Source of the DNA: a plasmid
Sequence record: NZ_CP123987.1
Reading direction: 5' to 3' (one strand)
DNA: 64,000 bases
Shown: positions 1-62,489 of the stretch, in pieces
Numbering within the stretch: position 1 is the stretch's first letter
How the letters are laid out: the number at the start of each line of letters is the position of its first letter
The notes under the pieces: generated by a model
Database searches by the model: none
What the model saw: only the letters and a program-made list of their open reading frames with translations
Told to the model about the DNA's origin: nothing
Translations under genes and position numbers: made by a program

Positions 1-11
1 GCTTAAATAAT

Positions 12-797
12 GTGGCTAATTTACAATTAGATAGCAATGGTGATTACCAAGTCTACACTAATAATAAAGACTTTAGTGTATCTGGAGAAGCTACTGATAA
101 TTTGGACGGATATTGTTTCTTCTTCAATGGAGATAATGATTATCGCGAATTCCACAATTCTGGTGTGAACTTTGTTACTGAAGCACATCAAGATGGAAGC
201 ACAGTAACTAATCCATATCCAGCATATAAGTTTAGCAAGACATTTAATTTAGCTGATACAACTGGCGAAACAACACACGTATATACATTGAGTGTAGTTG
301 ACTTGACAGGTAATACTGTAACTAGGAAGTTCTATGTTCACTATCAACCAGCTAGTGATACAGTTAAGACTGTAACAACTGATAAAGATGGTGCAACTAA
401 AGTACTAGTAGATTACAGTAACAATACATTGCAAGTAAAAGATAATACTGGTAGCTGGGTAAATGCTACTGGAGTCGAAGCTGCTAAGGATTATCGAGTA
501 GTTAATGAATACGGTAATGTAGTGTTGCTACTAAATGTTCTTGTAGATAAAGAACAAGACAATAATAAAGTACAAGTTAATGAAGTTACAAATAATAAAG
601 TAGAACAAACAGTAGTAACTAAGACTGTTTCAAATAAATCTGTAGCTAAAGTGGGCAAAAAAGCTGCAGAACCAGTAAAAGTATTACCACAAACTGGTGA
701 AAATAACAGTAAATCTACTTCTGTTCTAGGTGCAGTCTTAGCCTCAATCGCAGGATTCTTAGGTGCATTAGGCTTAAGACGTGTTAAAAAAGATTAA
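12..797 (+). CDS. LPXTG-anchored cell-surface protein, C-terminal part (5' end outside window)
   Basis: ORF starts at window edge; C-terminus has LPQTG sortase motif, hydrophobic segment and RRVKKD tail; T/V/N-rich surface-protein composition. Confidence 0.7.
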   Translation: MANLQLDSNGDYQVYTNNKDFSVSGEATDNLDGYCFFFNGDNDYREFHNSGVNFVTEAHQDGSTVTNPYPAYKFSKTFNLADTTGETTHVYTLSVVDLTGNTVTRKFYVHYQPASDTVKTVTTDKDGATKVLVDYSNNTLQVKDNTGSWVNATGVEAAKDYRVVNEYGNVVLLLNVLVDKEQDNNKVQVNEVTNNKVEQTVVTKTVSNKSVAKVGKKAAEPVKVLPQTGENNSKSTSVLGAVLASIAGFLGALGLRRVKKD

Positions 798-3441: not shown

Positions 3442-3540
3442 CTATATTTTTTTAGAAATTGGTAATTTAATGACAATTTGGCGGAAATCTCCTTACTTTA
3501 GTGAGGGGATGGATAGCCTAAGCCTAGGACTCGTAGAGTC

Positions 3541-3972
3541 CTATTTTTTATATGCATTATATTTTTGGTCGTTAATATATCTCTCAACAACATCTTTACT
3601 CATGCTACCTAGAGAGCCTAGATAATAGCTAGAAGACCATAAATGACCGCCCCAATATTGTTTTTGTCTAATTTCTGGATGTGTTTGTAAGAATAGGAAT
3701 GCACTTCTGCCTTTTAGTGCTTTGATTACGTCTATTGCTGATTTTCTTGGTGGAAATGAAATAAGCATATGTACATGGTCTGGCATTACTTCCATTTTTT
3801 CAATGACTATTTCATTGTCGTCAGCTACTCTTTGTAGAATATCTTTCATTTCGTTAGATAACTTTTCATTTGTAAAAGTCTTATTTCTGTATTTTGTACA
3901 CCAAATTAAGTGAAAATGTAAATTATACACATAACGTTTTGTGTATATTGCGTCTTTTATTTTATTAGTCAT
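3541..3972 (-). CDS. tnpA: IS200/IS605 family transposase TnpA (Y1 HUH)
   Basis: 143 aa with HVHMLISFPP (HuH) motif and conserved Tyr-containing C-terminus typical of IS200 TnpA. Confidence 0.85.
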   Translation of the reverse strand: MTNKIKDAIYTKRYVYNLHFHLIWCTKYRNKTFTNEKLSNEMKDILQRVADDNEIVIEKMEVMPDHVHMLISFPPRKSAIDVIKALKGRSAFLFLQTHPEIRQKQYWGGHLWSSSYYLGSLGSMSKDVVERYINDQKYNAYKK

Positions 3973-4071
3973 TGTATAGTCTCCTTTACCTTATAAAATT
4001 AACGATTTCTCTTGATACAAGCTAATACATTGATTATAATTATAGTATAAACTTAAAGGAGGTGAAATACA

Positions 4072-5349
4072 ATGAAGAAGATGAGTGATTTAGAGTATCA
4101 TTATGGATTGAAAATGCGTATTTATCCAAGCACTAACCAAAAGAAGATTATTAAAATCAATGGTAACATTGCTAGAACTGTTTATAATAAAATGGTTGCT
4201 ATTGACCAAGAATTATACAAGTTAAAACAAGTTAAGTTACCTATTGATATTGTTAAGGAACGTATTAAAGAATTAAAAAGTCGTAAAAACGCTAGAAATT
4301 TGTCTAATCATTATCAGTACATGCAAGATAAGAATATTGATAGTTTAGCTAAAGCTAACGCTATTCAAAATTATCAAAAAGCGTGGAAGATGTTTAGAAA
4401 AGTACATTTATCTGGTACACCTAAGTTCCATAAAAAGAGTTACCGTTTGAGTTATCAAACTAATGCTCAATATGGTAAAGATGCTAAAATGGACGTTTAT
4501 TCTGCTAGCGTAAAATTTCTTGATAAGAATCATATTAGTTTGCCTAAATTAGGTAGATTAAGAGTATCTGGTTCTCACCGTCGTATTATTGACAATAAAG
4601 ATGATATTAGAATCGGTACTGTTACTATCTCTAAAGATACAGCTGATAGATATTTCGTATCAATGCAATTAGGCTCTGATACACCATTTGTAAAGAAATT
4701 AGCTAAAACTAATTCTCAAGTTGGTGTTGATTTGAATACAGAGAATTTTTTGACCGATAGTTTTGGTAAAGTGGTAGCTAATCCGCGTTATTACCGTACT
4801 ATTAAAGGTAAAATAGCTAAAGCTCAAAAAGTATTATCTAGAAGGCAAAGAAGAGCTAAAAAAGAAAAACGTTCTTTACGTGATAGTAAAAATTATCAAA
4901 AACAAAGAGTTTTAGTAGCTAAGCTCCATGACAGAGTGCGCAATCAACGTAATAACTTTTTGAATCATGTTACTACTGCACTTATCAATAACCACGATTT
5001 GGTGGTAGTAGAAAATTTGAGAAGTAAAAATATGCTCAAGAATCATGCTTTAGCTATGTCTATATCCGATGTTGGCTGGAGAAGCTTTTTACAGAAATTG
5101 GATTATAAAGCTAATTTGTATAACAGAACAGTTATATCAGTTAATCCTAAAAATACAACACAGACTTGTTATGCTTGTGGCTTTATAATGGGAACAAATG
5201 GAACTGATAAGTTGAATCTCAAGGATAGAGAATGGACTTGTCCTAATTGTCATGAACACCATATTAGAGATTGGAATGCAGCTAAAAATATTCTAGCTAA
5301 AGGATTAGACAAGTTAGAAAAACCAAAAAACTTAGCTAAAGCTAAGTAA
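4072..5349 (+). CDS. tnpB: IS605/IS1341-type TnpB (OrfB) RNA-guided nuclease-like protein
   Basis: 425 aa; RuvC-like core with C-terminal zinc finger CYACG..CPNCHEHHIRDWNAAKNI. Confidence 0.85.
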   Translation: MKKMSDLEYHYGLKMRIYPSTNQKKIIKINGNIARTVYNKMVAIDQELYKLKQVKLPIDIVKERIKELKSRKNARNLSNHYQYMQDKNIDSLAKANAIQNYQKAWKMFRKVHLSGTPKFHKKSYRLSYQTNAQYGKDAKMDVYSASVKFLDKNHISLPKLGRLRVSGSHRRIIDNKDDIRIGTVTISKDTADRYFVSMQLGSDTPFVKKLAKTNSQVGVDLNTENFLTDSFGKVVANPRYYRTIKGKIAKAQKVLSRRQRRAKKEKRSLRDSKNYQKQRVLVAKLHDRVRNQRNNFLNHVTTALINNHDLVVVENLRSKNMLKNHALAMSISDVGWRSFLQKLDYKANLYNRTVISVNPKNTTQTCYACGFIMGTNGTDKLNLKDREWTCPNCHEHHIRDWNAAKNILAKGLDKLEKPKNLAKAK

Positions 5350-5560
5350 AGGGTGCGTTTGGCAGCTCGCGCCACCCGTATATTATTGTATACAAAGTGC
5401 TGTGGTAAATTGATGTGTAAGATGTAAGTATCTTTTTTTGGATATTTATGCTGTATTTTACCCACGGAAGAGTGTGTTAGTAGAGCCGAAAGGCTTGAAC
5501 ACTCACAAGCTCCATGTCTTTAGACTGGAGTGAGTTGACTAGAGAAGCCTGGCGTCTATT
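5250..5560 (+). ncRNA. candidate omega-RNA (right-end guide RNA scaffold of TnpB); boundaries guessed
   Basis: structured GC-richer segment overlapping the tnpB 3' end and extending to the putative right end; stems gggtgcg..cgccaccc and gagtgtgttagtagagccgaaaggcttgaacactc. Confidence 0.3.
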
Positions 5561-49643: not shown

Positions 49644-49910
49644 TTACAAATCTGGTTCTAAGTTAATTACAATGTTCTGCTTGTAAGGTTTTTCAGGAGT
49701 CATATTGTGATTTTTGCAACACTCAAAATAATCATCAATTGTATCTTCAAAATCATCTTTCAATTCTTGTAATGTATTTCCTTCATAGGATAATAAACTT
49801 CTAATCCCCAAAACTTCGCCATGTAAAATATTATCCTCTAAAGAATACTCTATTGTTCCTTTGTAACCTCTATAGCTCATGACTTCTTGCATTTTTATGT
49901 TTCCTTTCAA
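49644..49910 (-). CDS. hicB: HicB-family antitoxin-like protein
   Basis: 88 aa; YSLEDNILHGEVLGI...GNTLQELKDDFEDTIDDYFE pattern typical of HicB. Confidence 0.55.
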   Translation of the reverse strand: MKGNIKMQEVMSYRGYKGTIEYSLEDNILHGEVLGIRSLLSYEGNTLQELKDDFEDTIDDYFECCKNHNMTPEKPYKQNIVINLEPDL

Positions 49911-49913
49911 TTA

Positions 49914-50195
49914 TTATCTATTTAACTGTATAGTCCAAGTTAAATTGAATAAAAAAACAACATCCCCGTCAACAACGAGGATGTCTTCGATTGTGGTATG
50001 TAGAACCTTACTGAGAATGACTAAGTTATCCAAACTAGGTAGTGATCTACCAGATAACCATTTATAAATGGATTGTGGGTTCTCAAATCCCATAACTGAT
50101 TGAATATCACGTACACTGTACCCATTATTTTTGAATAAACTTTTTAGATTAGCACCAGTTTTTTCTGAATTTATCGAAACATACATTGGCTTCAT
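49914..50195 (-). CDS. small XRE-like HTH regulator
   Basis: 93 aa; HTH-like LKSLFKNNGYSVRDIQSVMGF..IYKWLSGRSLPSLDNLVILSKVL; 3-bp gap to the HicB-like gene. Confidence 0.5.
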   Translation of the reverse strand: MKPMYVSINSEKTGANLKSLFKNNGYSVRDIQSVMGFENPQSIYKWLSGRSLPSLDNLVILSKVLHTTIEDILVVDGDVVFLFNLTWTIQLNR

Positions 50196-50972
50196 GAAAT
50201 CACCTCAATTTAATTATACATACCTCGAACATTTAATACCAAAAATAGCCAACGCAAAATTTGCATTGACTAAAAATTATGTAAACCGACGCGTATTGGC
50301 TTACGTGGGATACTCTTGTATCTGGACTTATTAGACTACTGAATCAGACTAGCACATCATGGCTAGCAACTTCCATGACCTAGTCCGCATTTCAAGTTCA
50401 GGGCATAGACCTTTTCCTATCCAATTTTCACCAAACATGTGCAATGTTCCAGTTAATGTAATATTGTCGATTTTGGCTACTCAAACCTTACTCGTCAGTT
50501 ATAGCTGTGTCACCACAACTTCACGACACGAATTCTTAGTTGATATTCTTCTTTGGTTCCTAAGGTAATCAGCCTTAATTAACTGAAGATGGCATATTGC
50601 GAATCCCTGACGGCAAGTGTCTTAGTTTCAGATATGAGTCCCCTTGCTTCTCTCTACACAACTTTTTTTCGTTGCTCCCAATTAGTACATTAGAAAAAAT
50701 AAACGTATCCGTATATTTCGTCATAGTAGTTATTAAGAGACGTATGGCTAGGCGGCTTGTCACACCTCATCCACTAGCTTCATCGGTACACTTATATACT
50801 AACAAAGCTTAGGTCATTAAACTATAAACTGTTAGGTTAATTTGGGCGATTTCGACATAGGACCAATTTCTTAATTTATGCAAAATAAACTTTGATATCG
50901 CTTTATTTGCATAAATTTTAGAATTTCTCCTGTGTCTAATATTCAAAATTAGCTTTTCATCACCCCAAAATA

Positions 50973-51626
50973 TCAGTCTATTCTTTCTAATTCTATACTT
51001 CTAAAGATGAAATAATCTAAAATTGTTAATATCAAAATCCACATTGCACTAAAATAAAGTTTACTATTATCTGCATGAATCAAATAGTTAATAGGCCATG
51101 CTACGAAACACCAATAGGCTGACATTAAAGTTTTATTACTAGCAAAAATAATAAATAAAATCTCTACTAATGAAAATACTAAATTTATATATTTATTAGT
51201 AACCATATATAAAAACATGTGACTATGATTAAGTAATACTATCAATAGCCACATTGCTATTCCGCTGATTATCCCTAATTTAACTTGGGCTATGGAATAA
51301 CTTATTATCCACCATACAAAAAATGAAATCCACCATAATAATAAGTCTAAGATTAACGTTTTTATTGTAAGTAATTTCACTTGACTATACTTACGAACTT
51401 CTTGAAAATTATTTGCTTCTCTTTCTTGTTCAAAGCATATATTAGTTATCACAGAAATTAAAGATGGATAAGCTAGAGCAAATGCCAGTACAATATTTTT
51501 ATAAGTTAGTAAATTTCGATGCCAATACAAATACCCGTAGGCTGATGCAATTTCAAAAATAGTGAAACTTACTAATAGGTATATAGTAGGACTACTTTTT
51601 AATTTTAATAATTCACTTCTAATCAT
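50973..51626 (-). CDS. nisG: lantibiotic immunity ABC transporter permease, NisG homologue
   Basis: 217 aa, 6 TM; last gene of a nisFEG-like triplet. Confidence 0.75.
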   Translation of the reverse strand: MIRSELLKLKSSPTIYLLVSFTIFEIASAYGYLYWHRNLLTYKNIVLAFALAYPSLISVITNICFEQEREANNFQEVRKYSQVKLLTIKTLILDLLLWWISFFVWWIISYSIAQVKLGIISGIAMWLLIVLLNHSHMFLYMVTNKYINLVFSLVEILFIIFASNKTLMSAYWCFVAWPINYLIHADNSKLYFSAMWILILTILDYFIFRSIELERID

Positions 51627-52335
51627 TTGATTTACCCCATCTTGTAAAATATATTAAAAGTAAAGATATCAATAATGAAAGTAATACAGGACTCATAACA
51701 TCAAAAAGTTGTAAATTTATAATTTTAAAAATTCCTGAGGGCTGTACCCCTAATAGATACTGTGATATTTTATAATGGTACGAGTATGGAAATGCAAACC
51801 ACCATTGTGTTTGAGAAATGATAGATCCAAATAATAAACATACTAACGTATTAACTGCTATAAGCAAATAGCCATTTATAAAATTAGCTAAAAAATATAA
51901 CCACGGTATATTCCAAAATACAGATAACAATAACAGAAATATACTTAGTATACTTTTACTTAGTAATAATTCTGTATAACCACTAAAAAACTTATTTAAG
52001 ACAATTACTAGTATTATAAAAAAAAGACTTGATATTGCAACTCGTACAAAGATTAAGAAAATTTTTGCCAAATAAATTTGGAAACTCCACAAATTATACT
52101 TAACATTTTGAAAGTTTCCTGCTTTTTTCTCCATATTAAAATCCATTAAAAATAATAATCCTATTAGTAGGTATAAAAAAACAGATTCCCACCAATATAT
52201 GGCAAAAGGAGAAAAAATAATTACTCCCCCTACTAAAAAAGCAATTAAACCCGTTAATAAAGGGATGATCCATAAAAGTTTGTTTATTCTAACTTTTTTT
52301 AATTTCAATATTTCAGAAAACAAAGCTTTTATCAT
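51619..52335 (-). CDS. nisE: lantibiotic immunity ABC transporter permease, NisE homologue
   Basis: 238 aa multi-TM, overlapping F and G genes. Confidence 0.75.
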   Translation of the reverse strand: MIKALFSEILKLKKVRINKLLWIIPLLTGLIAFLVGGVIIFSPFAIYWWESVFLYLLIGLLFLMDFNMEKKAGNFQNVKYNLWSFQIYLAKIFLIFVRVAISSLFFIILVIVLNKFFSGYTELLLSKSILSIFLLLLSVFWNIPWLYFLANFINGYLLIAVNTLVCLLFGSIISQTQWWFAFPYSYHYKISQYLLGVQPSGIFKIINLQLFDVMSPVLLSLLISLLLIYFTRWGKSND

Positions 52336-53024
52336 ATGAAACTCTCTCCCTTCATAACATTAAAGAAAATCTCTTCAATATCTTTATAATTACTTTGAAT
52401 TTTATCATATACAACATGTCCTTTATCTAAAATGATAACTTGATCGACGATTCTTCCAATTTCATGTAGCTGGTGACTTGATATCAAAATAGTTACACCT
52501 TGTTTTTTTAATGACTTTAGTAAATCTAAAAATTCAATAACCCCATCAGGATCTAATCCGTTAATTGGTTCATCGAGAATTATAAATTTAGGTTGTGTTA
52601 AAATAGCCATTCCGATCCCCAATCTTTGTTTCATGCCAACTGAAAATTTACCTGCATGTTTTTTATCCGTGCTATCTAAACCAACTCTTTTTAAAACATC
52701 TTTAATTTGATTATTTGGAATATCATATAAAAGTGCTTTAGTTTTTAAATTATCAAAAGCTGATAAATTCGAATAAATTGGTGGTTGTTCAATCAAAGCA
52801 CCAATGTTACTAGTTTTTCCGTGACCTTCAAATAGTACTTGTCCTTTATCTGGTATTTCAATCCCATAAATAATTTTCATTAAAGTTGATTTTCCAACAC
52901 CATTCATCCCAAATAAACCACAAATAGTACCTTTTTCAATCGTAAAGCTTACATCCTTTAATACTTCTCTATCCTGGTATTTCTTAGAAATATTTTTCAC
53001 TTCAATTTTCATCTTATATATCAC
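52332..53024 (-). CDS. nisF: lantibiotic immunity ABC transporter ATPase, NisF homologue
   Basis: Walker A GMNGVGKST, signature SVGMKQRLGIGMAIL; high similarity to recalled NisF (ALIEQPPIYSNLSAFDNLKTKALL). Confidence 0.85.
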   Translation of the reverse strand: MIYKMKIEVKNISKKYQDREVLKDVSFTIEKGTICGLFGMNGVGKSTLMKIIYGIEIPDKGQVLFEGHGKTSNIGALIEQPPIYSNLSAFDNLKTKALLYDIPNNQIKDVLKRVGLDSTDKKHAGKFSVGMKQRLGIGMAILTQPKFIILDEPINGLDPDGVIEFLDLLKSLKKQGVTILISSHQLHEIGRIVDQVIILDKGHVVYDKIQSNYKDIEEIFFNVMKGESFI

Positions 53025-53075
53025 CTTATCTTTAATTATTCGGTAATAGTATAAGTAATTAAATTCATAATTAGA

Positions 53076-54242
53076 TCAGAATTTCTGGATTCCTAACTTT
53101 ACACTCACCCCATCATTTACTAGATTTGTAATTATCATGGTACCACCATGTCTGACTGCAACCGCTTGTGCAAAAGATAGTCCAATTCCATAATGCTTTC
53201 CACTACGGCCTTTATCTTCAGTAAAAAATAACTTTTGCGCATTAACTTGTGCTTCTTCTGAAAATGGTGCCCCATTATTCCATATTTCAAACCATAAAAA
53301 TTTTAAATCTTCAGTTACAGTAACCGATACTTGGGGATTACTTTTATCCGCATACTGACACGCATTAAGAAAAATGTTGATTAGTGCTCGTTTTAGAGCT
53401 GGAACATTAGCATGAAATTTCTTTAAATTAGTTTTTACCTTTAATCGATTATTCGTTTTGTTGACTATGGCAATATCTGTTAGTTCAAGAAAAAGTTCTT
53501 TAATAAATTCATTTAAATTTATTTCTTCGCTTATTGAATTTAAATTTAGTAACTTAGTATAATTAATCATTGTATTAAAATAATTTTCTAAAGTTTGAAT
53601 ACTGTTTTTCATAGATTCCATAAATTCTAATTGTCTCTTATCAGGATTAGTCAGTTCCAACAACTCTATATTTCCTTTTAATACAGTAAGTGGTGTTTTT
53701 ATATCATGAGATAATGCTGCTACCTGAAATGATAAATCTTCTTTTTCTATCCGTTCAGTCTCAATTAAAGTTGATAACTCATTACTTTTTTGATAGAGTT
53801 GCTTTAATACAGTATCAAATTCTTTAATTTTCGACTTAGGATAATCTTTAGTAACCTTATTCCCCATATTTAAAGCAATCTTTTGAATAGCTGTAAAATT
53901 TTTTGAAATCTCATGAATTAGTTTATAAATTGCAATAATGATTATTAATGATTCGTATATAATCAAAAATATATATGATATTTGATTATACGAAAACTTT
54001 CTCAAGACTGGATTAGTAAATTCCGGAACACTATTTTGTCTAATCACTAAGCTATATAACTTATTAGAAGATATAGTATAACTTGTAGTCCCATTTATAT
54101 AACTTTTATTCTTTACTTTAGCTAAGTAGTAATTATCTTTATCATTTTTTTGATATCTACTTGCTACAATTTTTCCTGTTCTCCTATCGAATACAATAAA
54201 GTCATAAGGATATTTTTTCATCGTTTGCCTAATATCCGTCAA
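53076..54242 (-). CDS. nisK: sensor histidine kinase, NisK homologue
   Basis: 388 aa; H-box LSHDIKTPLT and HATPase domain; paired with a NisR-like regulator. Confidence 0.8.
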   Translation of the reverse strand: MTDIRQTMKKYPYDFIVFDRRTGKIVASRYQKNDKDNYYLAKVKNKSYINGTTSYTISSNKLYSLVIRQNSVPEFTNPVLRKFSYNQISYIFLIIYESLIIIIAIYKLIHEISKNFTAIQKIALNMGNKVTKDYPKSKIKEFDTVLKQLYQKSNELSTLIETERIEKEDLSFQVAALSHDIKTPLTVLKGNIELLELTNPDKRQLEFMESMKNSIQTLENYFNTMINYTKLLNLNSISEEINLNEFIKELFLELTDIAIVNKTNNRLKVKTNLKKFHANVPALKRALINIFLNACQYADKSNPQVSVTVTEDLKFLWFEIWNNGAPFSEEAQVNAQKLFFTEDKGRSGKHYGIGLSFAQAVAVRHGGTMIITNLVNDGVSVKLGIQKF

Positions 54243-54265
54243 AGTAGTTTTATTAGAATCTAATA

Positions 54266-54895
54266 CTAAATAAACTTTATTCGGATTTGATATATATATT
54301 CGGAAATAGATCCAAATAAAGTTTCTGCATATTCGTCATATACATTATTATAAATGTCTTCACGACTATAAATATGAGAAGTCCTTCGTGAGAGCAATTC
54401 TAAAATATCATATTCACGACTAGTCAAAGGAATATCTTGACTATTAACGCATACCCTTCGTTCTTCCAAATAAAAAGTTATTTTCCCCATATCACGCTTA
54501 ACTTCTGCGAAATCCCGAACTGCTTGACGACTACGTTCTTCTCGTTTAATATTTGCATCAATTTTAGCTAATAACTGTTTCAAACTAAAAGGTTTGGTTA
54601 TATAATCATCACCACCAATTTTTAAACCATATAAAATATCTTCTTCATCATCTTTAGCACTTATAAAAATAATTGGCGTTGAAATCTTAGAACGAATCTG
54701 ATAACAAATTTCAGTTCCTGATATCTTTGACATCATAATATCTAATAAAATTAAATTAAAACCCTCAAAATCTGATAATTTTAACGGAACATGAACATTT
54801 TGGCAAGTTACAACCTCATAATTTTTCATTTCTAATGCTGTTTTCATAAGTTTTAAAATTTCTACATCATCATCTATAACTAAGATTCTATACAT
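54266..54895 (-). CDS. nisR: OmpR-type response regulator, close NisR homologue, C-terminus about 20 aa shorter than NisR
   Basis: MYRILVIDDDVEILKLMKTALEMKNYEV...ITKPFSLKQLLAKIDANIKREER...YLEERRVCVNSQDIPLTSREYDILELLS..ISEYIYQIRIKFI matches recalled NisR nearly colinearly; stops right after IRIKFI whereas NisR continues into the winged-helix wing. Confidence 0.8.
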   Translation of the reverse strand: MYRILVIDDDVEILKLMKTALEMKNYEVVTCQNVHVPLKLSDFEGFNLILLDIMMSKISGTEICYQIRSKISTPIIFISAKDDEEDILYGLKIGGDDYITKPFSLKQLLAKIDANIKREERSRQAVRDFAEVKRDMGKITFYLEERRVCVNSQDIPLTSREYDILELLSRRTSHIYSREDIYNNVYDEYAETLFGSISEYIYQIRIKFI

Positions 54896-54931
54896 ACGTC
54901 CTCTTCCTTATAATAATTTTTATAACTACAG

Positions 54932-56152
54932 TTAAAAATCATCAAATAACATTAATGATTTCATCCATTGCGTTTTCCCTTTATTTGAAAAACACTCATT
55001 TAAAGTTAAAATAATACCCGTTGTTCCCTCAAGAAAGCCTAAATTTCGAATATCTTTGTCAAAAATACTTTCTATTTCATCAGTATAGTTATTTATAAAT
55101 GTATCAAATTTTCTCGTTTTTGTAAGTTTCCTAAATAAAATGCATATCGAAACTATCCCTGACTTGCCATGACAAATCATGTTGGAATCTACATTCCGCA
55201 TTTCCTTAGTAGCTCTATATAGTATTTCTATTGCTTTTTTTATAAGGTATGAATTATCTTGAATTAGTCCAATATATAAATATAAAACACTTATTCCTGG
55301 ACTACCGTAACACCATGCGTCTCTTATAAATAAATCATTATCTTTTAAAATTGTTCTATTATTAACCAATTCATTATAATCTATTCCATCTTTCCAATGA
55401 AATTTATTCTTATCAACTAATTCAAATTTTTCATAAATCTGAATAATCCTTTCTAATCCGTGTAATATTTCCTTTTTCATAAAGCCCTTTTTATACGCAT
55501 AAGCCAATACACTTCCTACACCAGCAAGTCCATGTGACATACCTGTATTTAGACAACCATTAGGATAAATTTCGTTTTCTGCCTCTGACATTTGGTTACC
55601 TGTTTTAATATACATCGCTATCAATGAATCATTATCATCTAATAAGGTTAATAAAAAAATAATAATTTTTGTCACTAATTTGATATCTATATTATCTATT
55701 AAAAGCAGATACATGAGAATTCCTGATAATCCTTCAATCACATCATAATTAGGTGGAGTAACATTTCCAATATTAAACTCTCCAATTTCTTTGTCTACAT
55801 AATAACTAATGTAATCATTTAGACTTGCAATTAAATTTTGAAATCTCAAATCTTTTTTGAGTGGTAATAAACTTAATGCAATCCCAGCTGCACCTGAATA
55901 TAGAGAACCTGTTAAAAGTCCATATTTTGATAACTTTCCATATAAATAGTCACAATACTAATCAATTTTGGACTTATATGTCCTATCTAAATCTTCCATC
56001 TCTAATAACAGTAAAATAACCCCTGGTAATCCCGAAGAAAGCGTGAATTCTTCGAAATTGTATCGATAAGCATTCTGTTCAATTCTCCTGTCCCATTCTA
56101 ATATCACTCTGCCAAATTTATTTTTTAAAATTTTTCTTTTTATTTCTTCCAT
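54932..56152 (-). pseudogene. nisC: nisC-like lanthionine cyclase (LanC) interrupted by in-frame TAG at 55958-55960
   Basis: ORFs 55958..56152 (N-terminal 64 aa) and 54932..55849 (WCYGSPG and CHGKSG zinc-ligand motifs) are in the same frame, separated only by an amber codon (+ strand cta at 55958-55960); the combined length of about 406 codons matches LanC. Confidence 0.65.
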
Positions 56153-57938
56153 ATTTTTCTGCCCAATATAGTTCTTGATAGAAACTACAATCTTTTAAAA
56201 GTTCTTCATGAGTTCCAATACCTACTACTCTTCCTTTATTCATAACAATTATTTTTGATGCCTTACGAGCTACATTTAAATCATGTGAGATAAAAATAGA
56301 TATATTATCTTTGGATAGATTTACAAAATAATCAAATATTTCTTTTTCTGAAATTGGATCTAGCGCTGCACTTGGTTCATCTAATATATATACAGAAGCA
56401 TTTTTAAAAAAAGCTCTAGCCAAAGCTATTTTTTGCCACTGACCACCTGATAATTGCCTCCCATTTTGGAACCAAGTTCCTAATTGTAAATTTAAATTAT
56501 ATTCTCCATTCTCTTTTAAAAAATTTAACCTTAATTTATCCATAATATGTATAATCTTATTATCATCCCACTTCTCTGCAATATTACCAAGACCAATATT
56601 TTCCCTTAAAGTTAGCTCATATTTAACAAAATCTTGGAATAATATCGATATATTCTTTTGATAAAAATCTGTCGATATATGCTTATCTTCAATACCGTTA
56701 TAATATATATGACCTTTAGATGGTGTGTATAACTCTGAGATTAACTTTACTAGAGTACTTTTACCAGATCCATTTTCCCCTATTATCGCAATTAGTTCCC
56801 CTGTATGCATAGAAAAGTTTATTTTTTCTAAAGCATTGACAGAAGAGTTAGGATACTTATATTCAACATCTATTAGATCTATCCTTTTTATTCTGTTCTC
56901 ATCACCTATCCCTATGTTTTCACGATAATCACTTTGATTTTCTATTTTCAAAAAATTAAGTAATTGCTCCATAAACAAACTAGTATTATAAATAATATAA
57001 ATATTTTGTATGATTGTTTGTGAATAGCCATTTATCTTTGTAATTGCTTGCATAAGACTAACTAAATTTCCTATTAATATTCTTCCAGCTTGTACAGATA
57101 CTATAATAGTGCATATAACAAAAATATTGATAAAGTCTAATAAAATTTGAAGTCCCGAATTAAAATATGCTTTCTTTCTAGCAATAAGCAAATCTTGTAA
57201 TATAAAATCTTTTTTTAATTTCTTATACTCTTCCACAAAATAATCACTTAAATTATTTAATTTAATTTCCTTAAAAGAAAAGTCATGTGTCAATAAATAA
57301 ACTATATACCACGACTTTCTTTCTGCACTCGCTCTTTTCCATTGTATTAAAAATTCAAGTTGACCTACTTTTAAAAATATAATTAAAGATAACATAGGAG
57401 TTACTAATAACAGCAATCCTATCCATATGTTCCACGCCGCAACAAAAATCAAACTAGTCAGTAAAGATATAAAAGCAGCCAGCATAGTAATAACAGCATT
57501 AAAAAGTTGAAATGGTTTATACGTACTATCCTGTGTTATTTTCTCAATAAGATTATACATATCTGATTGTTCATAATCTGTCAACTTTAAGGAGGTTGTT
57601 TTTTTTATCAATTTTAAATTAATATTGTAAGAAAGCCACATATTAAATTTTCCGTTTATATAATTTTCTAATTGAGATAATATTACCGTAAATATTTGTA
57701 GTATTAAAAAATAAATAATATTATATACAAGCTGCATTCCTCGACTAAATATACTATTGATCAGATTTTGATAAACTATTAAATTTAATAGCGGAATTAA
57801 TGCCGTTACTATATTTAAGCACATTAAGTATGTTGCATATTTTCTTTCTAATTGAAAAATTAACTTAATCGTATCTGGAAGTGTTAATAATGTCTTAAAA
57901 AAATTTTTTGATGTTAGTTTTTTTATTTCATCCATCAT
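56118..57938 (-). CDS. nisT: lantibiotic ABC exporter without peptidase domain, NisT homologue
   Basis: 606 aa; 6-TM domain plus C-terminal ABC (GENGSGKST, LSGGQWQKIALARAF); overlaps nisB stop and nisC start. Confidence 0.85.
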   Translation of the reverse strand: MMDEIKKLTSKNFFKTLLTLPDTIKLIFQLERKYATYLMCLNIVTALIPLLNLIVYQNLINSIFSRGMQLVYNIIYFLILQIFTVILSQLENYINGKFNMWLSYNINLKLIKKTTSLKLTDYEQSDMYNLIEKITQDSTYKPFQLFNAVITMLAAFISLLTSLIFVAAWNIWIGLLLLVTPMLSLIIFLKVGQLEFLIQWKRASAERKSWYIVYLLTHDFSFKEIKLNNLSDYFVEEYKKLKKDFILQDLLIARKKAYFNSGLQILLDFINIFVICTIIVSVQAGRILIGNLVSLMQAITKINGYSQTIIQNIYIIYNTSLFMEQLLNFLKIENQSDYRENIGIGDENRIKRIDLIDVEYKYPNSSVNALEKINFSMHTGELIAIIGENGSGKSTLVKLISELYTPSKGHIYYNGIEDKHISTDFYQKNISILFQDFVKYELTLRENIGLGNIAEKWDDNKIIHIMDKLRLNFLKENGEYNLNLQLGTWFQNGRQLSGGQWQKIALARAFFKNASVYILDEPSAALDPISEKEIFDYFVNLSKDNISIFISHDLNVARKASKIIVMNKGRVVGIGTHEELLKDCSFYQELYWAEKYGRNKKKNFKK

Positions 57939-60898
57939 TATTTCCCTTTCAAAATATATTTTTCAGACATAATCATTTTTTTTACAATAAAATACAGATT
58001 TTGTTCCCTAACCCTATTAATTCCAAATAACCTATTATTATGTACATGTATAATACTATCCATAATAGTGTCAGCATTTTTTTTATCAATTATTAATTTT
58101 AGTTTTTTAATCTCTTCCTTAAGTCTATTAAAGTTGTATTTGTCAATCTCATATATGTCAGTTAACTGATTAAATACTACACTTTTATAGTATTGTATTT
58201 TAGACCTTACATTTTTATCTACCTTATTGGGACAGACTTTATCTAGAAAACATAAAATGTCTTCATTTGTTTTATAAAATATTTTTAAATAAAAATAAAT
58301 CATTGCAACTGCAATATCATCAAGTTTATCTTCCATGTTCTTTTCTTTTATAAATTTCAAATACTTTATTACAAGTTTAGAATCTTCACAGAAAATATTT
58401 TCAGCTATATCTATTGCATTAACTCCTCCATATCTCTCAATTTCGCGATCATATGTAGAAATATCAAAAGTCGATAAAATACCATTTCTATGACCTTGCT
58501 CCAAATCTTTTTTAATAACTTCATATATTTTATATAAATTATTACCACTTATCCTTATCCTTATTTGTGGTACTGGATCCATATAACGTAAGAAAAATAG
58601 TTTTCCGTCTAATTTTTCTACCTTTTTTTGAATCAGAGGTATGTAAACTCGTATAAACTCTTCTTGTCTCCTAGTCGACATATACACTTTTAGATATAAC
58701 CAATCATTGAATGGCAATTTCTCTCGAACATGTTTGGAGATTCTCTGTTGTTTTTCCTTGTTTACTTTTTTAACATCGAATTTACTATTAATAACTGGAA
58801 CCACTATCTCTGATATTTTTCCTTCACTATCTTTATATATCATGTCTTTATTATTAAAATATTCTTGTATAATGGCATGACCATTCTTTTCTATATTTCT
58901 TTTTATTTCTGACATAAACAGTTCAACATCAAGTGAATTTTTACGATTAATATATAGTTTGTTATCACCGTCAACAATATAAATTTCATTCGGTATATTT
59001 CTCTGCTTTATAATCGACTCTATTGCTATATTACTTAATTCAAATTTAAATATTCTCCATGTCTTAGGACTGACTACTATATCCTCAAACATAATTCGTG
59101 GAATAAAATTCATATCTTTATAGATTAAATCCCATGGTACATATCCAAAATTATTATTTATTGAAATTTCACATAAAAATCTTAGTTCATTACTAAATAA
59201 TGTCTTGTTATACATGCTTGTTACATAAAACTTCATTTTTTCTTGAGTAGACACATCATACGCATAAAAATTTTCATTTTCATCTAATCCAATATAAATA
59301 TTAGTTAGCCTTACTTCAGATTGATCAGTACTTGAGAAAATAGGAAGAACTTTTTCTCTTACAAAAGATGTTCGCATTATATTAGCGTGTCGTATATTTT
59401 CAGGAAGAAAAACTATTTCACAAGACGTCACCCCTTCTTCAATATTTGCAGCTTTCACTTGTTTAAGTGTCTTCATGTGATAATCCCTTAATTTATCTGA
59501 TAATAATGAGAACCTTCCAGAGGATCCCCCTATATTATTACTGCCTATAATATTGCTTAATGCTAAAGTTTTCTTCTTATTAATTTGGACCATATGAAAA
59601 AATAATTCTATTCCTTGTATTGAGGTACTTTCTTTGGAATTCAGATTTCTATAATAATTAGAAAAGCATTTCAAATTAATTTCCTCTCTATTTAATAAAG
59701 CTTCTATATATTTATTAATATACATTTCTTTTTCATCATGGGAATAATATGACGTTGGAGGCTCTAATTCAAAAACTTCATTCTGAGGATGCGTATAATC
59801 ATACGGTGCGCCAATTCCTTTTATTGGATCAAATAGTTCTATTAACTGCACATCTTGATCAATACCATATTTTTCAATGAATTTATCTTTATAGTCATCA
59901 AAATAAGTCCTAGTTACTGATTTAACAGTATTAGTTATAAAATTTGAAAATTTCTCTATTCTTTGTTTATTACTATTATCAATATATATATTCCCATCAT
60001 TATATAAATCTACTTGAATATAATTATCACTTTTATTAAGTCTAGCCATTTGGTGATATATTTCAATTAATTTATCAGAACCCGAACCTATTTCAATATG
60101 TGTATATTCTTCAATTAACTCTTGTATCTTTGTTAATATTTCTACATATTTTTTACTAACATCTATTTCCCTAACTTTCATTATGAAGTCTGACATAGAA
60201 AAATTAATTAGTATATTTTCTTGTAAATTTGATATTAGATAATGATTCTCTACTAAATCATTAATATATTCTTTTGTTAAATTTAAGTATTCATTACCAT
60301 ATATTGTTATAACCTTTTCTATGATTTCACTATATGTCTTATAAGTTTGGCTACACTCTTCTGATATAATTCGATAAACTTTAGAGTTATTAATACTAAC
60401 TTCCTCTAAATCTTGATCATTTATTGAATATAATTGCATAACACGATTTCCACTAATGTAATTTCCATTATTAGATATGAAAGATAAGTTTGATTGATAG
60501 TCCTTTTCTAATTTAAAAATTACATCTGTTAACCATTTAATATCTATAAAAACTACTTTGTGTGTTTTCCCTAATTCTTTCTTATCACCCTTAACGGTAA
60601 ATTTACCATTAGAAGTTTCACTAAATAGTCCAAAAGGAGTTGCTCGATAATAGCTCCTTTTATAATATTTATATATTGATTCAAAAAAATTTTTTTCTTT
60701 CTTTTTCTTTAGTTTTCCTGCATTATACTTTTTAAGCATTCCATACAGCTTAGGATTAGCCAATAATATTTGTTCAAGAAAAATATTATCATTTTTAATA
60801 ATTTCAATAAATTCCTTATAATTATTGAAATTTTGACTTTTTTCATATGTTTGAATTGTATTACGTATCATTACATCACTAACATTGAAATTATTCAT
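57938..60898 (-). CDS. nisB: class I lantibiotic dehydratase, NisB homologue
   Basis: 986 aa; N-terminal FLEQILLANPKLY, FESIYKYYKRSYYRATPFGLFSETS, EIVFLPENIRHANIM and C-terminal HVHNNRLFGI segments colinear with recalled NisB. Confidence 0.9.
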   Translation of the reverse strand: MNNFNVSDVMIRNTIQTYEKSQNFNNYKEFIEIIKNDNIFLEQILLANPKLYGMLKKYNAGKLKKKKEKNFFESIYKYYKRSYYRATPFGLFSETSNGKFTVKGDKKELGKTHKVVFIDIKWLTDVIFKLEKDYQSNLSFISNNGNYISGNRVMQLYSINDQDLEEVSINNSKVYRIISEECSQTYKTYSEIIEKVITIYGNEYLNLTKEYINDLVENHYLISNLQENILINFSMSDFIMKVREIDVSKKYVEILTKIQELIEEYTHIEIGSGSDKLIEIYHQMARLNKSDNYIQVDLYNDGNIYIDNSNKQRIEKFSNFITNTVKSVTRTYFDDYKDKFIEKYGIDQDVQLIELFDPIKGIGAPYDYTHPQNEVFELEPPTSYYSHDEKEMYINKYIEALLNREEINLKCFSNYYRNLNSKESTSIQGIELFFHMVQINKKKTLALSNIIGSNNIGGSSGRFSLLSDKLRDYHMKTLKQVKAANIEEGVTSCEIVFLPENIRHANIMRTSFVREKVLPIFSSTDQSEVRLTNIYIGLDENENFYAYDVSTQEKMKFYVTSMYNKTLFSNELRFLCEISINNNFGYVPWDLIYKDMNFIPRIMFEDIVVSPKTWRIFKFELSNIAIESIIKQRNIPNEIYIVDGDNKLYINRKNSLDVELFMSEIKRNIEKNGHAIIQEYFNNKDMIYKDSEGKISEIVVPVINSKFDVKKVNKEKQQRISKHVREKLPFNDWLYLKVYMSTRRQEEFIRVYIPLIQKKVEKLDGKLFFLRYMDPVPQIRIRISGNNLYKIYEVIKKDLEQGHRNGILSTFDISTYDREIERYGGVNAIDIAENIFCEDSKLVIKYLKFIKEKNMEDKLDDIAVAMIYFYLKIFYKTNEDILCFLDKVCPNKVDKNVRSKIQYYKSVVFNQLTDIYEIDKYNFNRLKEEIKKLKLIIDKKNADTIMDSIIHVHNNRLFGINRVREQNLYFIVKKMIMSEKYILKGK

Positions 60899-60977
60899 TT
60901 TTTCAAGCCCCTTTCACCTATTAAAAAAATGGGATAGCAAATCATCAAATTGATCTACGCTATCCCTTACTTTCTTA

Positions 60978-61157
60978 CTATTTACTTATATGTACATGAC
61001 AACCACATGATGCAGTTTTCATTGTACATCCCATTAGTGCACCTGTTTTGCAACCTGGGGTACAAAGTGAGTAGCTTGTAATTTTAACTGAATAATTTGA
61101 ATTTGTACTTTCCTTTGATACTTTTACTAAATCCAATTTAAAATCATTAACACTCAT
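60978..61157 (-). CDS. nisA: nisin-family class I lantibiotic precursor peptide (59 aa), not in the supplied ORF track
   Basis: own translation of the reverse strand: MSVNDFKLDLVKVSKESTNSNYSVK-ITSYSLCTPGCKTGALMGCTMKTASCGCHVHISK; GGAGG RBS 8 nt upstream; FNLD-type leader box (FKLDL); all nisin ring-forming Ser/Thr/Cys conserved; directly upstream of nisB. Confidence 0.85.
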   Translation of the reverse strand: MSVNDFKLDLVKVSKESTNSNYSVKITSYSLCTPGCKTGALMGCTMKTASCGCHVHISK

Positions 61158-61221
61158 TTAGAAAACCTCCTAATAACCCTTTAATTGTTTGTTCTAGAAC
61201 GTCACTATAATATGTTATTAT

Positions 61222-61239
61222 TTTCAGATTTTGTTCAGA
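61222..61239 (-). promoter_or_regulatory. NisR-type direct-repeat operator (TCTGA-N6-TCTGA) in the precursor-gene promoter
   Basis: minus strand reads TCTGAACAAAATCTGAAAA followed by a -10-like TATTATAGT about 45-60 nt upstream of the lanA ATG; same TCT-N8-TCT spacing as the nisA promoter. Confidence 0.6.
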
Positions 61240-61382
61240 ATACATATTATTTAAACTGATAATTTTAAAACCATGGAAAAATCTTTAAAATAAAAAATGC
61301 CAAAGATTAACATTTCAGCAATGTAACCTTCAGCATTTTCTTAACTTAAACTATTTTTAATTAGATTCAATTCTAATATTTT

Positions 61383-62489
61383 CTAACCTAAAAATTCAAA
61401 AACATCTTTGCGGTCATATAACTTAAATACTTTTTCAAATAAGAATTGACCGACAAGTGACGCAATAACTGGAATAACTAACCATGCTAGCAATGCTGCG
61501 ACAACGCCTAAGCCTTTTTCAATTGATGCTAATGGTCCTACTAAACCTACTAAACCAAAACCACCGGAAGCAGGAGAACCTGAAATTGACATCAAAGCTA
61601 CAGGAACTGCAGAAATTATTGCTGTAAAGAAACATGGTACTAAGATAATTGGACGTCTAAATAAGTTAGGCATCATCATCTTCATCGCACCTAAGGCAAT
61701 CGCAATTGTTACCCCTGGCTTGTTAACTTTCCATGAGTTTACTACAAGTACAAGTGTTGTTGCAGCAACTCCCATTGCAGCAGCACCAGCAGCCAAGCCG
61801 TTAACTTGGATAGCCATTGCAATCGCTACTGTTGAAATTGGAGAGATAATTAACACTGCAAAAGAGCAGGCAATTAAAATACACATTAAAACTGGTTGTA
61901 ATTCTGTAAATGTGTTAATCACATTACCAATTGCGGAAGTTATCGCTGTAACATATGGATACATATAGAATCCAATTAAGCCAGCACCTGTTCCTACTAC
62001 AATTGGTGTTAAAACAATTGCTACTGATCCAAATTTATCGCCTATCAACAGAATTAATCCAACTGCAATCGATGCTGTTAACATGGTATTAATAATATCC
62101 CCTGTTCCAGCACCTACATAGGCACCTGTTTTATTCAACGCTGGGAAGTATTTAATTACGCCAGAACCTACAAATGCGGCTCCACCAACTACGGTCATCT
62201 TCATGCCATCAAAGCCAAACTTTTGAGCAATCAATGTACCAATAATTAAAGGTGTTCCTAATTGGAAAATAATTGCTGCTTGTCCTAAATGTACGGCAAA
62301 AGGATTAGTGCCGAACATCTTGAGGATAGCGGCAAGAACAGCATTAGGAATTAAACCAACTATAATCCCGATGGCAGTACCGCCTAAAACACGATCAATG
62401 AAAACTTTGGGTGTAATCTTTGTTGTTTCCAAATTCGTCACCTTCTTTATATAAAATATACACATTATTATAAGTGAGATTGTGAGCAA
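61383..62489 (-). CDS. polytopic membrane protein, putative permease (PTS EIIC-like / sugar permease family uncertain)
   Basis: 368 aa, about 10 TM, Gly/Ala-rich helices; no soluble domain. Confidence 0.45.
   Translation of the reverse strand: MLTISLIIMCIFYIKKVTNLETTKITPKVFIDRVLGGTAIGIIVGLIPNAVLAAILKMFGTNPFAVHLGQAAIIFQLGTPLIIGTLIAQKFGFDGMKMTVVGGAAFVGSGVIKYFPALNKTGAYVGAGTGDIINTMLTASIAVGLILLIGDKFGSVAIVLTPIVVGTGAGLIGFYMYPYVTAITSAIGNVINTFTELQPVLMCILIACSFAVLIISPISTVAIAMAIQVNGLAAGAAAMGVAATTLVLVVNSWKVNKPGVTIAIALGAMKMMMPNLFRRPIILVPCFFTAIISAVPVALMSISGSPASGGFGLVGLVGPLASIEKGLGVVAALLAWLVIPVIASLVGQFLFEKVFKLYDRKDVFEFLG

What the first reader, a model, noticed from the sequence alone, without database searches (positions are those of the whole stretch)
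60978..61239. Unannotated nisin-family precursor gene with a variant core peptide
A 180-nt reverse-strand ORF below the ORF-track length cutoff sits directly upstream of the LanB gene and encodes MSVNDFKLDLVKVSKESTNSNYSVK-ITSYSLCTPGCKTGALMGCTMKTASCGCHVHISK. The 34-aa core aligns with nisin A (ITSISLCTPGCKTGALMGCNMKTATCHCSIHVSK) with 7 substitutions: I4Y, N20T, T25S, H27G, S29H, I30V, V32I. Every Ser/Thr/Cys needed for the five nisin rings is retained, but T25S would make ring E a lanthionine instead of a methyllanthionine. The C-terminal CGCHVHISK resembles the salivaricin D / kunkecin-type tail rather than nisin A. I cannot tell from the sequence alone whether this exact core is a published natural nisin variant.
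Basis: partly seen in the sequence, partly recalled or inferred. Interest (0 to 1): 0.9.

Follow-up and report, generated by a model that had tools for sequence, protein, structure and literature searches.

The report
Known nisin S gene, broken cluster
The small gene is real, but it is the already published and already annotated precursor of the lantibiotic nisin S on a Ligilactobacillus salivarius megaplasmid, and in this copy the surrounding gene cluster carries two previously reported inactivating mutations, so this strain probably cannot make the antibiotic.

Summary
The 59-aa reverse-strand ORF at 60978..61157 exists exactly as described, 79 nt upstream of a LanB gene. All seven substitutions versus nisin A are confirmed. 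It is not new. The core and the whole precursor, leader included, are 100% identical to nisin S (nssA) of Ligilactobacillus salivarius P1CEA3, published in 2023 with MS and activity data. RefSeq already annotates the gene as a "gallidermin/nisin family lantibiotic". The exact protein occurs on at least 1000 public contigs.

The window is a pMP118-type L. salivarius megaplasmid. It carries the 10.4-kb low-GC island nssABTCRKFEG, with NisRK-type promoters upstream of nssA and nssF and an attenuator hairpin after nssA.

nssC has a CAG→TAG nonsense codon (Q65*). A 203-bp deletion between two 26-bp direct repeats truncates the NssR DNA-binding domain and removes the start and first transmembrane helix of NssK. 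Both alleles recur in independent assemblies. The same pattern is already published for plasmid p612A of strain AR612.

Verdict: a real feature, correctly recognised as nisin-family, but already known and probably non-producing here. Interest is low.

The parts
60978..61157 (-). nssA, the nisin S structural gene. Leader codons are 61083..61157 (25 aa, FKLD variant of the FNLD box, Lys at -1). Core codons are 60981..61082 (34 aa). The TAG stop is 60978..60980.
   Evidence: sequence and ORF; PF02052; 100% identical to the published nisin S core, leader and full precursor; P0001, 100% identity and coverage.
61207..61239 (-). PnssA, a NisRK-type inducible promoter. TCT-N8-TCT (TCTGAACAAAATCT) is at 61226..61239, the -35 CTGAAC at 61233..61238, a 20-nt spacer follows, and the -10 TATTAT is at 61207..61212.
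   Evidence: the motif occurs once in the window. The architecture matches the published PnisA consensus CTGAAC-N20-TACAAT within TCT-N8-TCT (PMC9958725). Function is inferred, not tested.
61166..61171 (-). Ribosome-binding site AGGAGG, 8 nt upstream of the nssA ATG.
   Evidence: read directly from the sequence.
60923..60966 (-). Hairpin (GGGATAGC...GCTATCCC) followed by T7, between nssA and nssB. It is a likely partial terminator or attenuator that sets the nssA:nssBTC transcript ratio.
   Evidence: MFE -22.3 kcal/mol, z=-3.92, 0 of 200 shuffles fold as well. The role is inferred by analogy with the nisA-nisB inverted repeat (established knowledge).
57938..60898 (-). nssB, the LanB dehydratase, 986 aa, intact.
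   Evidence: Lant_dehydr_N E=1.7e-85, Lant_dehydr_C E=1.1e-40; identical to the pLS2102-15_1 protein.
56118..57938 (-). nssT, the ABC exporter, 605/606 aa, intact.
54932..56152 (-). nssC, the LanC cyclase, present as a pseudogene. CAG→TAG (Q65*) lies at 55958..55960 (window 55960 is A where the reference has G). What remains is a 64-aa N-terminal ORF and a 305-aa ORF starting at a TTG.
   Evidence: Pfam LANC_like match begins at profile position 77/350. Intact NssC aligns end to end with NisC 2G02/2G0D, E=5e-123. The same allele is in GCA_009865925.1 and in 106 index blocks.
54266..54895 (-). nssR, the OmpR/PhoB-type response regulator, truncated to 209 aa from 229. It carries T206I, residues 209-229 are replaced by one Ile, and the wing hairpin (TIRGVGYK) is lost.
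   Evidence: Trans_reg_C matched only to profile position 56/77; alignment to RegX3 2OQR.
54272..54297 (.). Junction of the 203-bp deletion. It is the single surviving copy of a 26-bp direct repeat, AAACTTT[A/G]TTCGGATTTGATATATAT, which is present twice (203 bp apart) in intact clusters.
   Evidence: Absent from 9 of 9 other loci compared. Present in 9 Logan contigs from two SRA series.
53076..54296 (-). nssK, the histidine kinase, as a remnant. Codons 42-447 remain, but the start codon, RBS and first transmembrane helix are gone. The longest residual ORF is 388 aa from a TTG.
   Evidence: HisKA and HATPase_c domains retained.
53048..53080 (-). PnssF. The TCTGA box is at 53076..53080, the -35 TGATCT at 53073..53078, a 19-nt spacer follows, and the -10 TATACT is at 53048..53053.
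   Evidence: Matches the published PnisF consensus TGAACA-N19-TATACT.
50973..53012 (-). nssFEG, the ABC-type immunity transporter: F 52332..53012, E 51619..52335, G 50973..51626. All three are intact.
   Evidence: F is ABC_tran; all three identical to pLS2102-15_1.
50949..61350 (.). The nisin S island: 10,402 bp here, about 10,605 bp when intact. GC is 26.6% against 32.8% for the rest of the window. It replaces 46 bp in the cluster-less megaplasmid pHN3.

Best explanation
The ORF is nssA, the structural gene of the class I lantibiotic nisin S. It lies in the nssABTCRKFEG island of a pMP118-type Ligilactobacillus salivarius megaplasmid.

In an intact cluster the pathway runs as follows. NssK senses external nisin S and phosphorylates NssR. 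NssR activates the two non-canonical promoters PnssA and PnssF. The 59-aa precursor is recognised through its FKLD leader box. NssB dehydrates it (eight dehydrations observed in the producer strain). NssC cyclises it into five thioether rings, with ring E a lanthionine because residue 25 is Ser. NssT exports it. A protease not encoded in the island removes the leader after Lys-1. NssFEG protects the producer. The mature 3347-Da peptide kills Gram-positive bacteria in the nisin manner, by lipid II binding through rings A/B followed by pore formation.

In this window nssA, nssB, nssT, nssFEG and both promoters are intact, but nssC is a pseudogene (Q65*). A 203-bp repeat-mediated deletion also removes the DNA-binding wing of NssR and the 5' end of nssK. 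This copy is therefore most likely silent and unable to make mature nisin S. The lesion pattern matches the one published for plasmid p612A of strain AR612.

Shown here: sequence identity, gene content, the lesions and their recurrence. Shown in the literature: production, mass and activity of nisin S in strain P1CEA3. Inferred: the ring topology, the regulation, and the non-producer phenotype of this copy.
For: The ORF and its translation are confirmed. The published nisin S core ITSYSLCTPGCKTGALMGCTMKTASCGCHVHISK (PMC10095417 Table 2; review PMC13032696), the leader (Table S3) and the full 59-aa precursor (PMC11594732 Table 4) are all 100% identical. The computed mass, 3491.16 Da minus 8 H2O, is 3347.04 Da, against the published 3347.15 Da.

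Pfam assignments cover all cluster genes. The window is about 99.97-100% identical to and collinear with L. salivarius plasmid pLS2102-15_1, where the gene is annotated as 'gallidermin/nisin family lantibiotic'. The exact protein is on at least 1000 contigs. Promoter architecture matches the published PnisA and PnisF consensus. A hairpin follows nssA.

The lesions are a G→A change at 55960 giving Q65* in nssC, and a 203-bp deletion between 26-bp repeats. Q65* is also present in GCA_009865925.1 and in 106 index blocks. The deletion allele is in 9 contigs from two SRA series, in at least two of them together with the nssC split. [quoted passage not shown] NssC is homologous to NisC over its full length. 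The NssR truncation removes the conserved C-terminal hairpin.
Against: No expression or peptide data exist for the strain behind this window. The non-producer call is an inference from the sequence. A chromosomal LanC or a cross-talking response regulator cannot be excluded from a 64-kb window. The 305-aa nssC remnant keeps the motifs that align with the NisC zinc and active-site residues, so residual activity from an internal start is unlikely but untested. The source replicon could not be named directly, because p612A was not among the plasmid-collection hits. The nis-box motif count is not statistically significant on its own (1 found, 0.79 expected with up to one mismatch); its weight comes from position and architecture.
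Confidence: 0.95

Rival explanations
1. The ORF encodes a new, undescribed natural nisin variant.
For: It differs from nisin A at 7 of 34 positions. T20 and S25 are unusual among named variants.
Against: It is 100% identical over core, leader and full precursor to nisin S, published in 2023 and listed in a 2026 review. It is already named in NCBI/UniRef.
Confidence: 0.01
2. Despite the lesions, the strain still produces active nisin S. This could happen through a second LanC elsewhere in the genome, translation of the 305-aa nssC remnant, or activation of PnssA by another regulator or by basal transcription.
For: nssA, nssB, nssT, nssFEG and both promoters are intact and identical to the complete cluster. 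The nssC remnant keeps the motifs that align with the NisC catalytic residues. Only 64 kb of the genome is visible.
Against: The remnant lacks the first ~100 residues of a single-domain fold (Pfam match starts at 77/350). No other LanC or lanthipeptide gene is in the window. PnisA-type promoters have a non-canonical -35 and a 20-nt spacer and depend on the cognate regulator, and NssR here lacks its DNA-binding wing. Two independent hits in one pathway fit decay after loss of function. The authors of PMC10778751 marked these p612A ORFs as putatively non-functional.
Confidence: 0.07
3. The nonsense codon and the 203-bp deletion are assembly or sequencing artefacts of this record, and the real cluster is intact.
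For: The deletion lies between two 26-bp direct repeats, a configuration that can confuse assemblers. Other loci show 1-nt changes in A8 runs that could be errors.
Against: Q65* is a substitution, not a homopolymer error. It is found in an independent NCBI genome and in 106 index blocks from unrelated projects. The deletion allele was assembled independently in 9 contigs from two SRA series. The same lesions are reported in the literature for p612A.
Confidence: 0.02

Closest known systems
Nisin S (nssA; L. salivarius P1CEA3, megaplasmid pMP1CEA3; Sevillano et al. 2023, PMC10095417 and PMC10778751)
   Same: The 59-aa precursor is identical (25-aa leader plus 34-aa core). The gene order is the same, nssABTCRKFEG, with no nisI or nisP. 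It sits on the same kind of replicon, an L. salivarius megaplasmid.
   Different: The window's cluster is 203 bp shorter (10,185 bp from nssA start to nssG end, against the published 10,385 bp) and carries nssC Q65*. It matches the defective p612A/AR612 version described in PMC10778751, not the producer version.
pLS2102-15_1 (NZ_CP090412.1), L. salivarius 2102-15, complete nisin S cluster
   Same: About 99.97-100% nucleotide identity and collinearity across the whole 64-kb window. NssA, B, T, F, E and G are identical.
   Different: It has intact nssC (406 aa), nssR (229 aa) and nssK (447 aa). It differs from the window by the 203-bp segment and a few SNPs.
Nisin F / nisin A (Lactococcus lactis)
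   Same: Same 34-aa length, same five-ring Ser/Thr/Cys scaffold, same ABTC...RKFEG order, and NisRK-type promoters. Core identity is 28/34 with nisin F and 27/34 with nisin A.
   Different: The core differs at I4Y, N20T, T25S, H/N27G, S29H, (I30V) and V32I. The leader has FKLD instead of FNLD and Lys instead of Arg at -1. There is no nisI or nisP. The cluster is plasmid-borne in Ligilactobacillus rather than on a lactococcal conjugative transposon.
Unnamed Leuconostoc gasicomitatum gallidermin/nisin-family precursor (P0003)
   Same: The core ITSVSLCTPGCKTGALMGCNMKTASCGCHVHVSK is 31/34 identical to nisin S. It shares Ser25 and the CGCHVH tail.
   Different: It has a nisin A-like leader (FNLD box, ASPR cleavage site) and differs at Y4V, T20N and I32V. 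This sequence string was not found in the literature library.
Salivaricin D (Streptococcus salivarius 5M6c)
   Same: The C-terminal ...HIHISK resembles the nisin S ...HVHISK (6/9 over residues 26-34).
   Different: Overall identity is only 21/34. It lacks Cys28 and therefore ring E, whereas nisin S keeps all five rings.

Membership tests
Nisin S (exact identity) | Core peptide ITSYSLCTPGCKTGALMGCTMKTASCGCHVHISK and leader MSVNDFKLDLVKVSKESTNSNYSVK | tested here: met
   34/34 and 59/59 identical to the published sequences.
Nisin S (exact identity) | Gene cluster nssABTCRKFEG without nisI or nisP, on an L. salivarius megaplasmid | tested here: met
   Gene order and Pfam content. The island 50949..61350 is fully occupied by these nine genes. 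Megaplasmid backbone confirmed.
Nisin S (exact identity) | Production of a 3347-Da, eight-fold dehydrated, antimicrobial peptide | not testable with these tools
   Published for P1CEA3. The computed mass agrees. For this window's strain, production is predicted to be absent because of the nssC, nssR and nssK lesions.
Nisin family / class I lanthipeptide precursor (Pfam PF02052 Gallidermin) | Significant match to the gallidermin/nisin precursor profile | tested here: met
   33.3 bits against a gathering cutoff of 21, E=6.3e-8.
Nisin family / class I lanthipeptide precursor (Pfam PF02052 Gallidermin) | FNLD-type box in the leader for LanB/LanC recognition | tested here: met
   F6-K-L-D9 aligns with the FNLD of nisin A (N→K). 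Read from the sequence and compared with Table S3.
Nisin family / class I lanthipeptide precursor (Pfam PF02052 Gallidermin) | Ser/Thr and Cys at all five nisin ring positions (3-7, 8-11, 13-19, 23-26, 25-28) and a conserved lipid II-binding N-terminus | tested here: met
   All positions are retained. Residues 1-19 differ from nisin A only at position 4. The actual ring topology has not been determined experimentally, even in the literature.
Functional class I lanthipeptide biosynthetic cluster | Intact LanB dehydratase and LanT exporter adjacent to the precursor gene | tested here: met
   NssB (986 aa) and NssT (605/606 aa) are full length and identical to the complete reference cluster.
Functional class I lanthipeptide biosynthetic cluster | Intact LanC cyclase | tested here: not met
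   Q65* nonsense codon at 55958..55960. The remaining ORF starts at LANC_like profile position 77/350.
Functional class I lanthipeptide biosynthetic cluster | Intact NisRK-type two-component regulator with cognate TCT-N8-TCT promoters | tested here: not met
   The promoters are present. NssR lacks its C-terminal wing, and NssK lacks its start codon and first transmembrane helix, because of the 203-bp deletion.

The most novel reading that the evidence does not exclude
The nisin S island may be decaying repeatedly and independently across L. salivarius lineages while nssA itself stays invariant. Of the 10 sequenced copies compared here (the window, L001 and L002-L009), only 2 have every gene intact. 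The others carry different lesions: nssB frameshifts in A8 runs, an nssT frameshift, an nssF stop, nssC Q65*, and the nssRK deletion. Q65* accounts for roughly 5% of the index blocks that carry nssA. This would suggest selection against production in the gut, or a shift towards non-producing lineages. The window shows a two-hit stage of that process: Q65* is shared with other lineages, and the repeat-mediated nssRK deletion is known only on Q65*-bearing copies.
Probability: 0.3. Interest if true: 0.3.

Novelty: already known. Interest (0 to 1): 0.08.

Why it matters
Nothing new would be learned about nisin diversity. The peptide, its cluster, its megaplasmid location and this defective allele are all published. 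The practical value is for annotation and strain screening. A genome-mining hit on an intact nssA gene, as BAGEL or antiSMASH would give, would wrongly flag this strain as a nisin S producer or probiotic candidate. Reading the neighbouring genes shows that the cyclase and the regulatory pair are broken. The case also illustrates that short RiPP precursor genes fall below ORF-length cutoffs and need dedicated detection.

Tried and rejected
1. The consensus terminator scan found no site at 60800..61450. Folding nevertheless shows a strong hairpin plus T7 after nssA. The scan's 3-8 nt loop rule probably excludes it, so I rely on the fold.

2. The nis-box pattern count alone is not significant (1 hit, 0.79 expected). 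I therefore used position, spacer length and -10 agreement with the published consensus instead.

3. I could not name the window's source. The plasmid collection held only one cluster-bearing record, pLS2102-15_1 with an intact cluster. Exact look-ups of the truncated NssR returned only anonymous SRA-derived contigs. The p612A/AR612 assignment therefore rests on the lesion pattern described in PMC10778751.

4. A term search of the nisin S supplement for Nss protein names returned nothing. Reading the file gave the leader table but no protein sizes.

5. A search for target-site duplications or inverted repeats at the island ends gave only a 9-bp AT-rich direct repeat, TCTAATATT at 50935 and 61372, and no mobility gene. 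This is not convincing evidence for a transposition mechanism.

6. I considered a spurious short ORF, a second structural gene in the island, and a nisI or nisP homologue in the island. All were rejected, because the nine genes fill the island and no other Cys-rich small ORF is present.

7. Literature searches for the Leuconostoc relative gave no description of it.

Full report
**Observation.** The reverse strand of window 60978..61157 carries an ATG-initiated ORF of 59 codons ending in TAG. A 986-aa ORF starts 79 nt downstream on the same strand and matches both lantibiotic dehydratase domains (Lant_dehydr_N E=1.7e-85, Lant_dehydr_C E=1.1e-40). The short ORF passes the Pfam Gallidermin/nisin model (PF02052, 33.3 bits against a cutoff of 21). 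Recomputing the comparison with nisin A gives 27/34 identities and exactly the seven listed substitutions, with all ring-forming Ser/Thr/Cys residues retained.

**Identity.** A full-text search for the first 19 core residues found three papers.
- The nisin S paper (Sevillano et al. 2023, PMC10095417) gives the NisS sequence ITSYSLCTPGCKTGALMGCTMKTASCGCHVHISK, identical at 34/34 positions. A 2026 review lists the same sequence under accession CP116812 with cluster NssABTCRKFEG.
- Supplementary Table S3 gives the leader MSVNDFKLDLVKVSKESTNSNYSVK. A 2024 paper prints the full 59-aa precursor (PMC11594732 Table 4). Both are identical to the window.
- The unmodified mass I computed (3491.16 Da) minus eight waters is 3347.04 Da, matching the published 3347.15 Da.
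- The nisin S authors had already noted T20 and S25 as unusual, the predicted lanthionine ring E, the Lys at -1, and the absence of nisP and nisI.

The gene is therefore nssA. It is not unannotated in public records. On the near-identical plasmid pLS2102-15_1 (NZ_CP090412.1), RefSeq calls it 'gallidermin/nisin family lantibiotic', WP_081539212.1. The exact protein is on at least 1000 contigs in the large protein collection and carries NCBI/UniRef names.

**Context.**
- The whole window is collinear with pLS2102-15_1, a 140.8-kb L. salivarius megaplasmid, at about 100% identity.
- Downstream of nssA lie nssB, nssT, nssC, nssR, nssK and nssFEG, with the expected Pfam domains.
- Comparison with the cluster-less megaplasmid pHN3 defines the island as window 50949..61350. 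That is 10,402 bp where pHN3 has 46 bp. The island has 26.6% GC against 32.8% for the rest of the window, with no mobility genes and only a weak 9-bp flanking repeat.

**Regulatory anatomy.**
- Upstream of nssA there is a TCT-N8-TCT repeat at 61226..61239. Its CTGAAC acts as the -35, a 20-nt spacer follows, and TATTAT is the -10 (61207..61212). AGGAGG lies 8 nt before the ATG.
- Upstream of nssF there is TCTGA, then TGATCT, a 19-nt spacer and TATACT.
- These match the published consensus for NisRK-dependent promoters: PnisA is CTGAAC-N20-TACAAT within TCT-N8-TCT, and PnisF is TGAACA-N19-TATACT (PMC9958725).
- Immediately after the nssA stop codon, a hairpin followed by T7 folds at -22.3 kcal/mol (z=-3.9). 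This is consistent with a partial terminator between the structural gene and the modification genes.
- These functions are inferred from architecture, not tested.

The LanC ORF is too short. A base-by-base comparison with pLS2102-15_1 shows two lesions.
- Window 55960 is A where the reference has G. On the coding strand this turns CAG (Gln65) into TAG and splits nssC into a 64-aa fragment and a 305-aa remnant that starts at LANC_like profile position 77/350. Intact NssC aligns end to end with NisC (2G02/2G0D, E=5e-123). The stop therefore removes about 84% of the protein, or about 25% if the downstream TTG were used.
- A 203-bp segment is missing at 54272..54297, exactly between two 26-bp direct repeats that are both present in the intact cluster. 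This is the signature of slipped-strand or repeat-mediated deletion. NssR becomes 209 aa: T206I, with residues 209-229 replaced by a single Ile. It loses the end of the recognition helix region and the conserved C-terminal hairpin TIRGVGYK (Trans_reg_C matched only to 56/77; alignment to RegX3). NssK loses its start codon, RBS and first transmembrane helix.
- NssA, B, T, F, E and G are identical to the reference.

**Are the lesions real?**
- Q65* is also present in the independent NCBI assembly GCA_009865925.1. The 64-aa fragment is indexed in 106 blocks from unrelated projects, against 2025 blocks for NssA.
- The truncated 209-aa NssR occurs on 9 contigs from two SRA series. At least two of these show the same split nssC.
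- None of the nine other sequenced copies compared has the deletion. The likely order is therefore Q65* first, then the deletion.
[quoted passage not shown] That is exactly the pattern seen here. The window is probably p612A or the same lineage, and even the defect is already on record.

**Mechanism.** In an intact cluster the system should work as nisin does.
- NssK/NssR autoinduction acts at PnssA and PnssF.
- Leader-guided dehydration by NssB and cyclisation by NssC follow, then export by NssT.
- An unlinked protease cleaves the leader after Lys-1.
- NssFEG provides immunity.
- The mature peptide kills by lipid II binding and pore formation.

Production, mass and activity are shown in the literature for P1CEA3. 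Ring topology and regulation are inferred. In this window the cyclase is null and the regulator pair is disabled, so nssA is most likely silent and mature nisin S cannot be made. I put about 0.85 on that sub-claim. A second cyclase or regulatory cross-talk elsewhere in the genome cannot be excluded.

**Comparison and novelty.**
- The closest named variant other than nisin S itself is nisin F (28/34), followed by nisin A and Z (27/34).
- The tail is best described as a nisin U/P/E/O-type CGCH ring E followed by a VHISK end similar to nisin F (VHVSK) and salivaricin D (IHISK). Resemblance to kunkecin A is poor, at 3/9.
- An unnamed Leuconostoc gasicomitatum precursor is 31/34 identical in the core and also has Ser25. 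The published statement that S25 is unique therefore holds only among named variants.

Everything about the flagged feature is already known. Interest is low.

**Side observation.** Among the other copies fetched, several carry different lesions:
- 1-nt deletions in A8 runs of nssB (L003, L005, L006, L009);
- a split nssB in L007;
- a split nssT and an altered nssE in L004;
- an nssF stop in L003 and L009;
- frameshifted nssA variants P0002 and P0004.

Some of these may be assembly errors. Together they hint that the island decays often. This is the most novel reading left open, and it is only modestly interesting.

Noticed in passing
window 55958..55960 and 54272..54297: nssC carries a Q65* nonsense codon. 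A 203-bp deletion between two 26-bp direct repeats truncates nssR and nssK. The cluster around the flagged gene is therefore defective. The same pattern is published for p612A of strain AR612.
   Followed up: yes
L003-L009 and L016-L021 (other nssA-bearing contigs): Different copies of the nisin S cluster carry different lesions. There are A8→A7 frameshifts near the 3' end of nssB (L003, L005, L006, L009), a split nssB (L007, L017), a split nssT (L004, L019), an nssF internal stop (L003, L009) and an altered nssE (L004). This may be recurrent decay, or partly assembly error.
   Followed up: partly
P0003 (Leuconostoc gasicomitatum, 57 aa; on 8 contigs): This is a nisin-family precursor with a nisin A-like leader and the core ITSVSLCTPGCKTGALMGCNMKTASCGCHVHVSK. 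It is 31/34 identical to nisin S and 29/34 to nisin A, and it also has Ser25. The core string was not found in the literature library, so it may be an unnamed natural variant.
   Followed up: partly
P0002 and P0004 (database relatives of NssA): These are an L. salivarius nssA allele with an altered N-terminus (MILNWILVKVSK...) that lacks the FKLD box, and a 40-aa version frameshifted within the core. They show that the structural gene itself is also broken in some copies.
   Followed up: no
window 1..797 (+), continuing beyond the window start: This is the 3' end of a large (about 1403 aa) S8-family serine peptidase gene, as annotated on the reference megaplasmid. NisP is also an S8 protease and the nisin S island lacks nisP, so this is a speculative candidate for the unknown leader peptidase.
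   Followed up: no
window 50949..61350: The nisin S island is a clean 10.4-kb replacement of 46 bp relative to pHN3. Its GC is 26.6% against 32.8% for the flanks. It has no integrase or transposase, and only a 9-bp AT-rich direct repeat (TCTAATATT at 50935 and 61372). How it was acquired is unclear.
   Followed up: partly
window 49644..50195 (-) and about 3500..5400: An HTH regulator plus HicB-family antitoxin pair lies just outside the island's nssG end. An IS200/IS605 tnpA plus TnpB (RNA-guided endonuclease family) element and IS3 transposase genes lie elsewhere in the window, according to the reference plasmid's annotation.
   Followed up: no
window 50663: There is a one-base length difference in a T run (T7 in the window, T6 in pLS2102-15_1) in the intergenic region just outside the island. 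Further SNPs against that plasmid are at 49542, 54279 and 63759.
   Followed up: no
PMC10095417 text versus sequence: The nisin S paper, and the review that copies it, describes the precursor as 58 aa with a 25-aa leader and a 34-aa core. The sequence is 59 aa (25+34). This is a minor inconsistency in the literature.
   Followed up: yes
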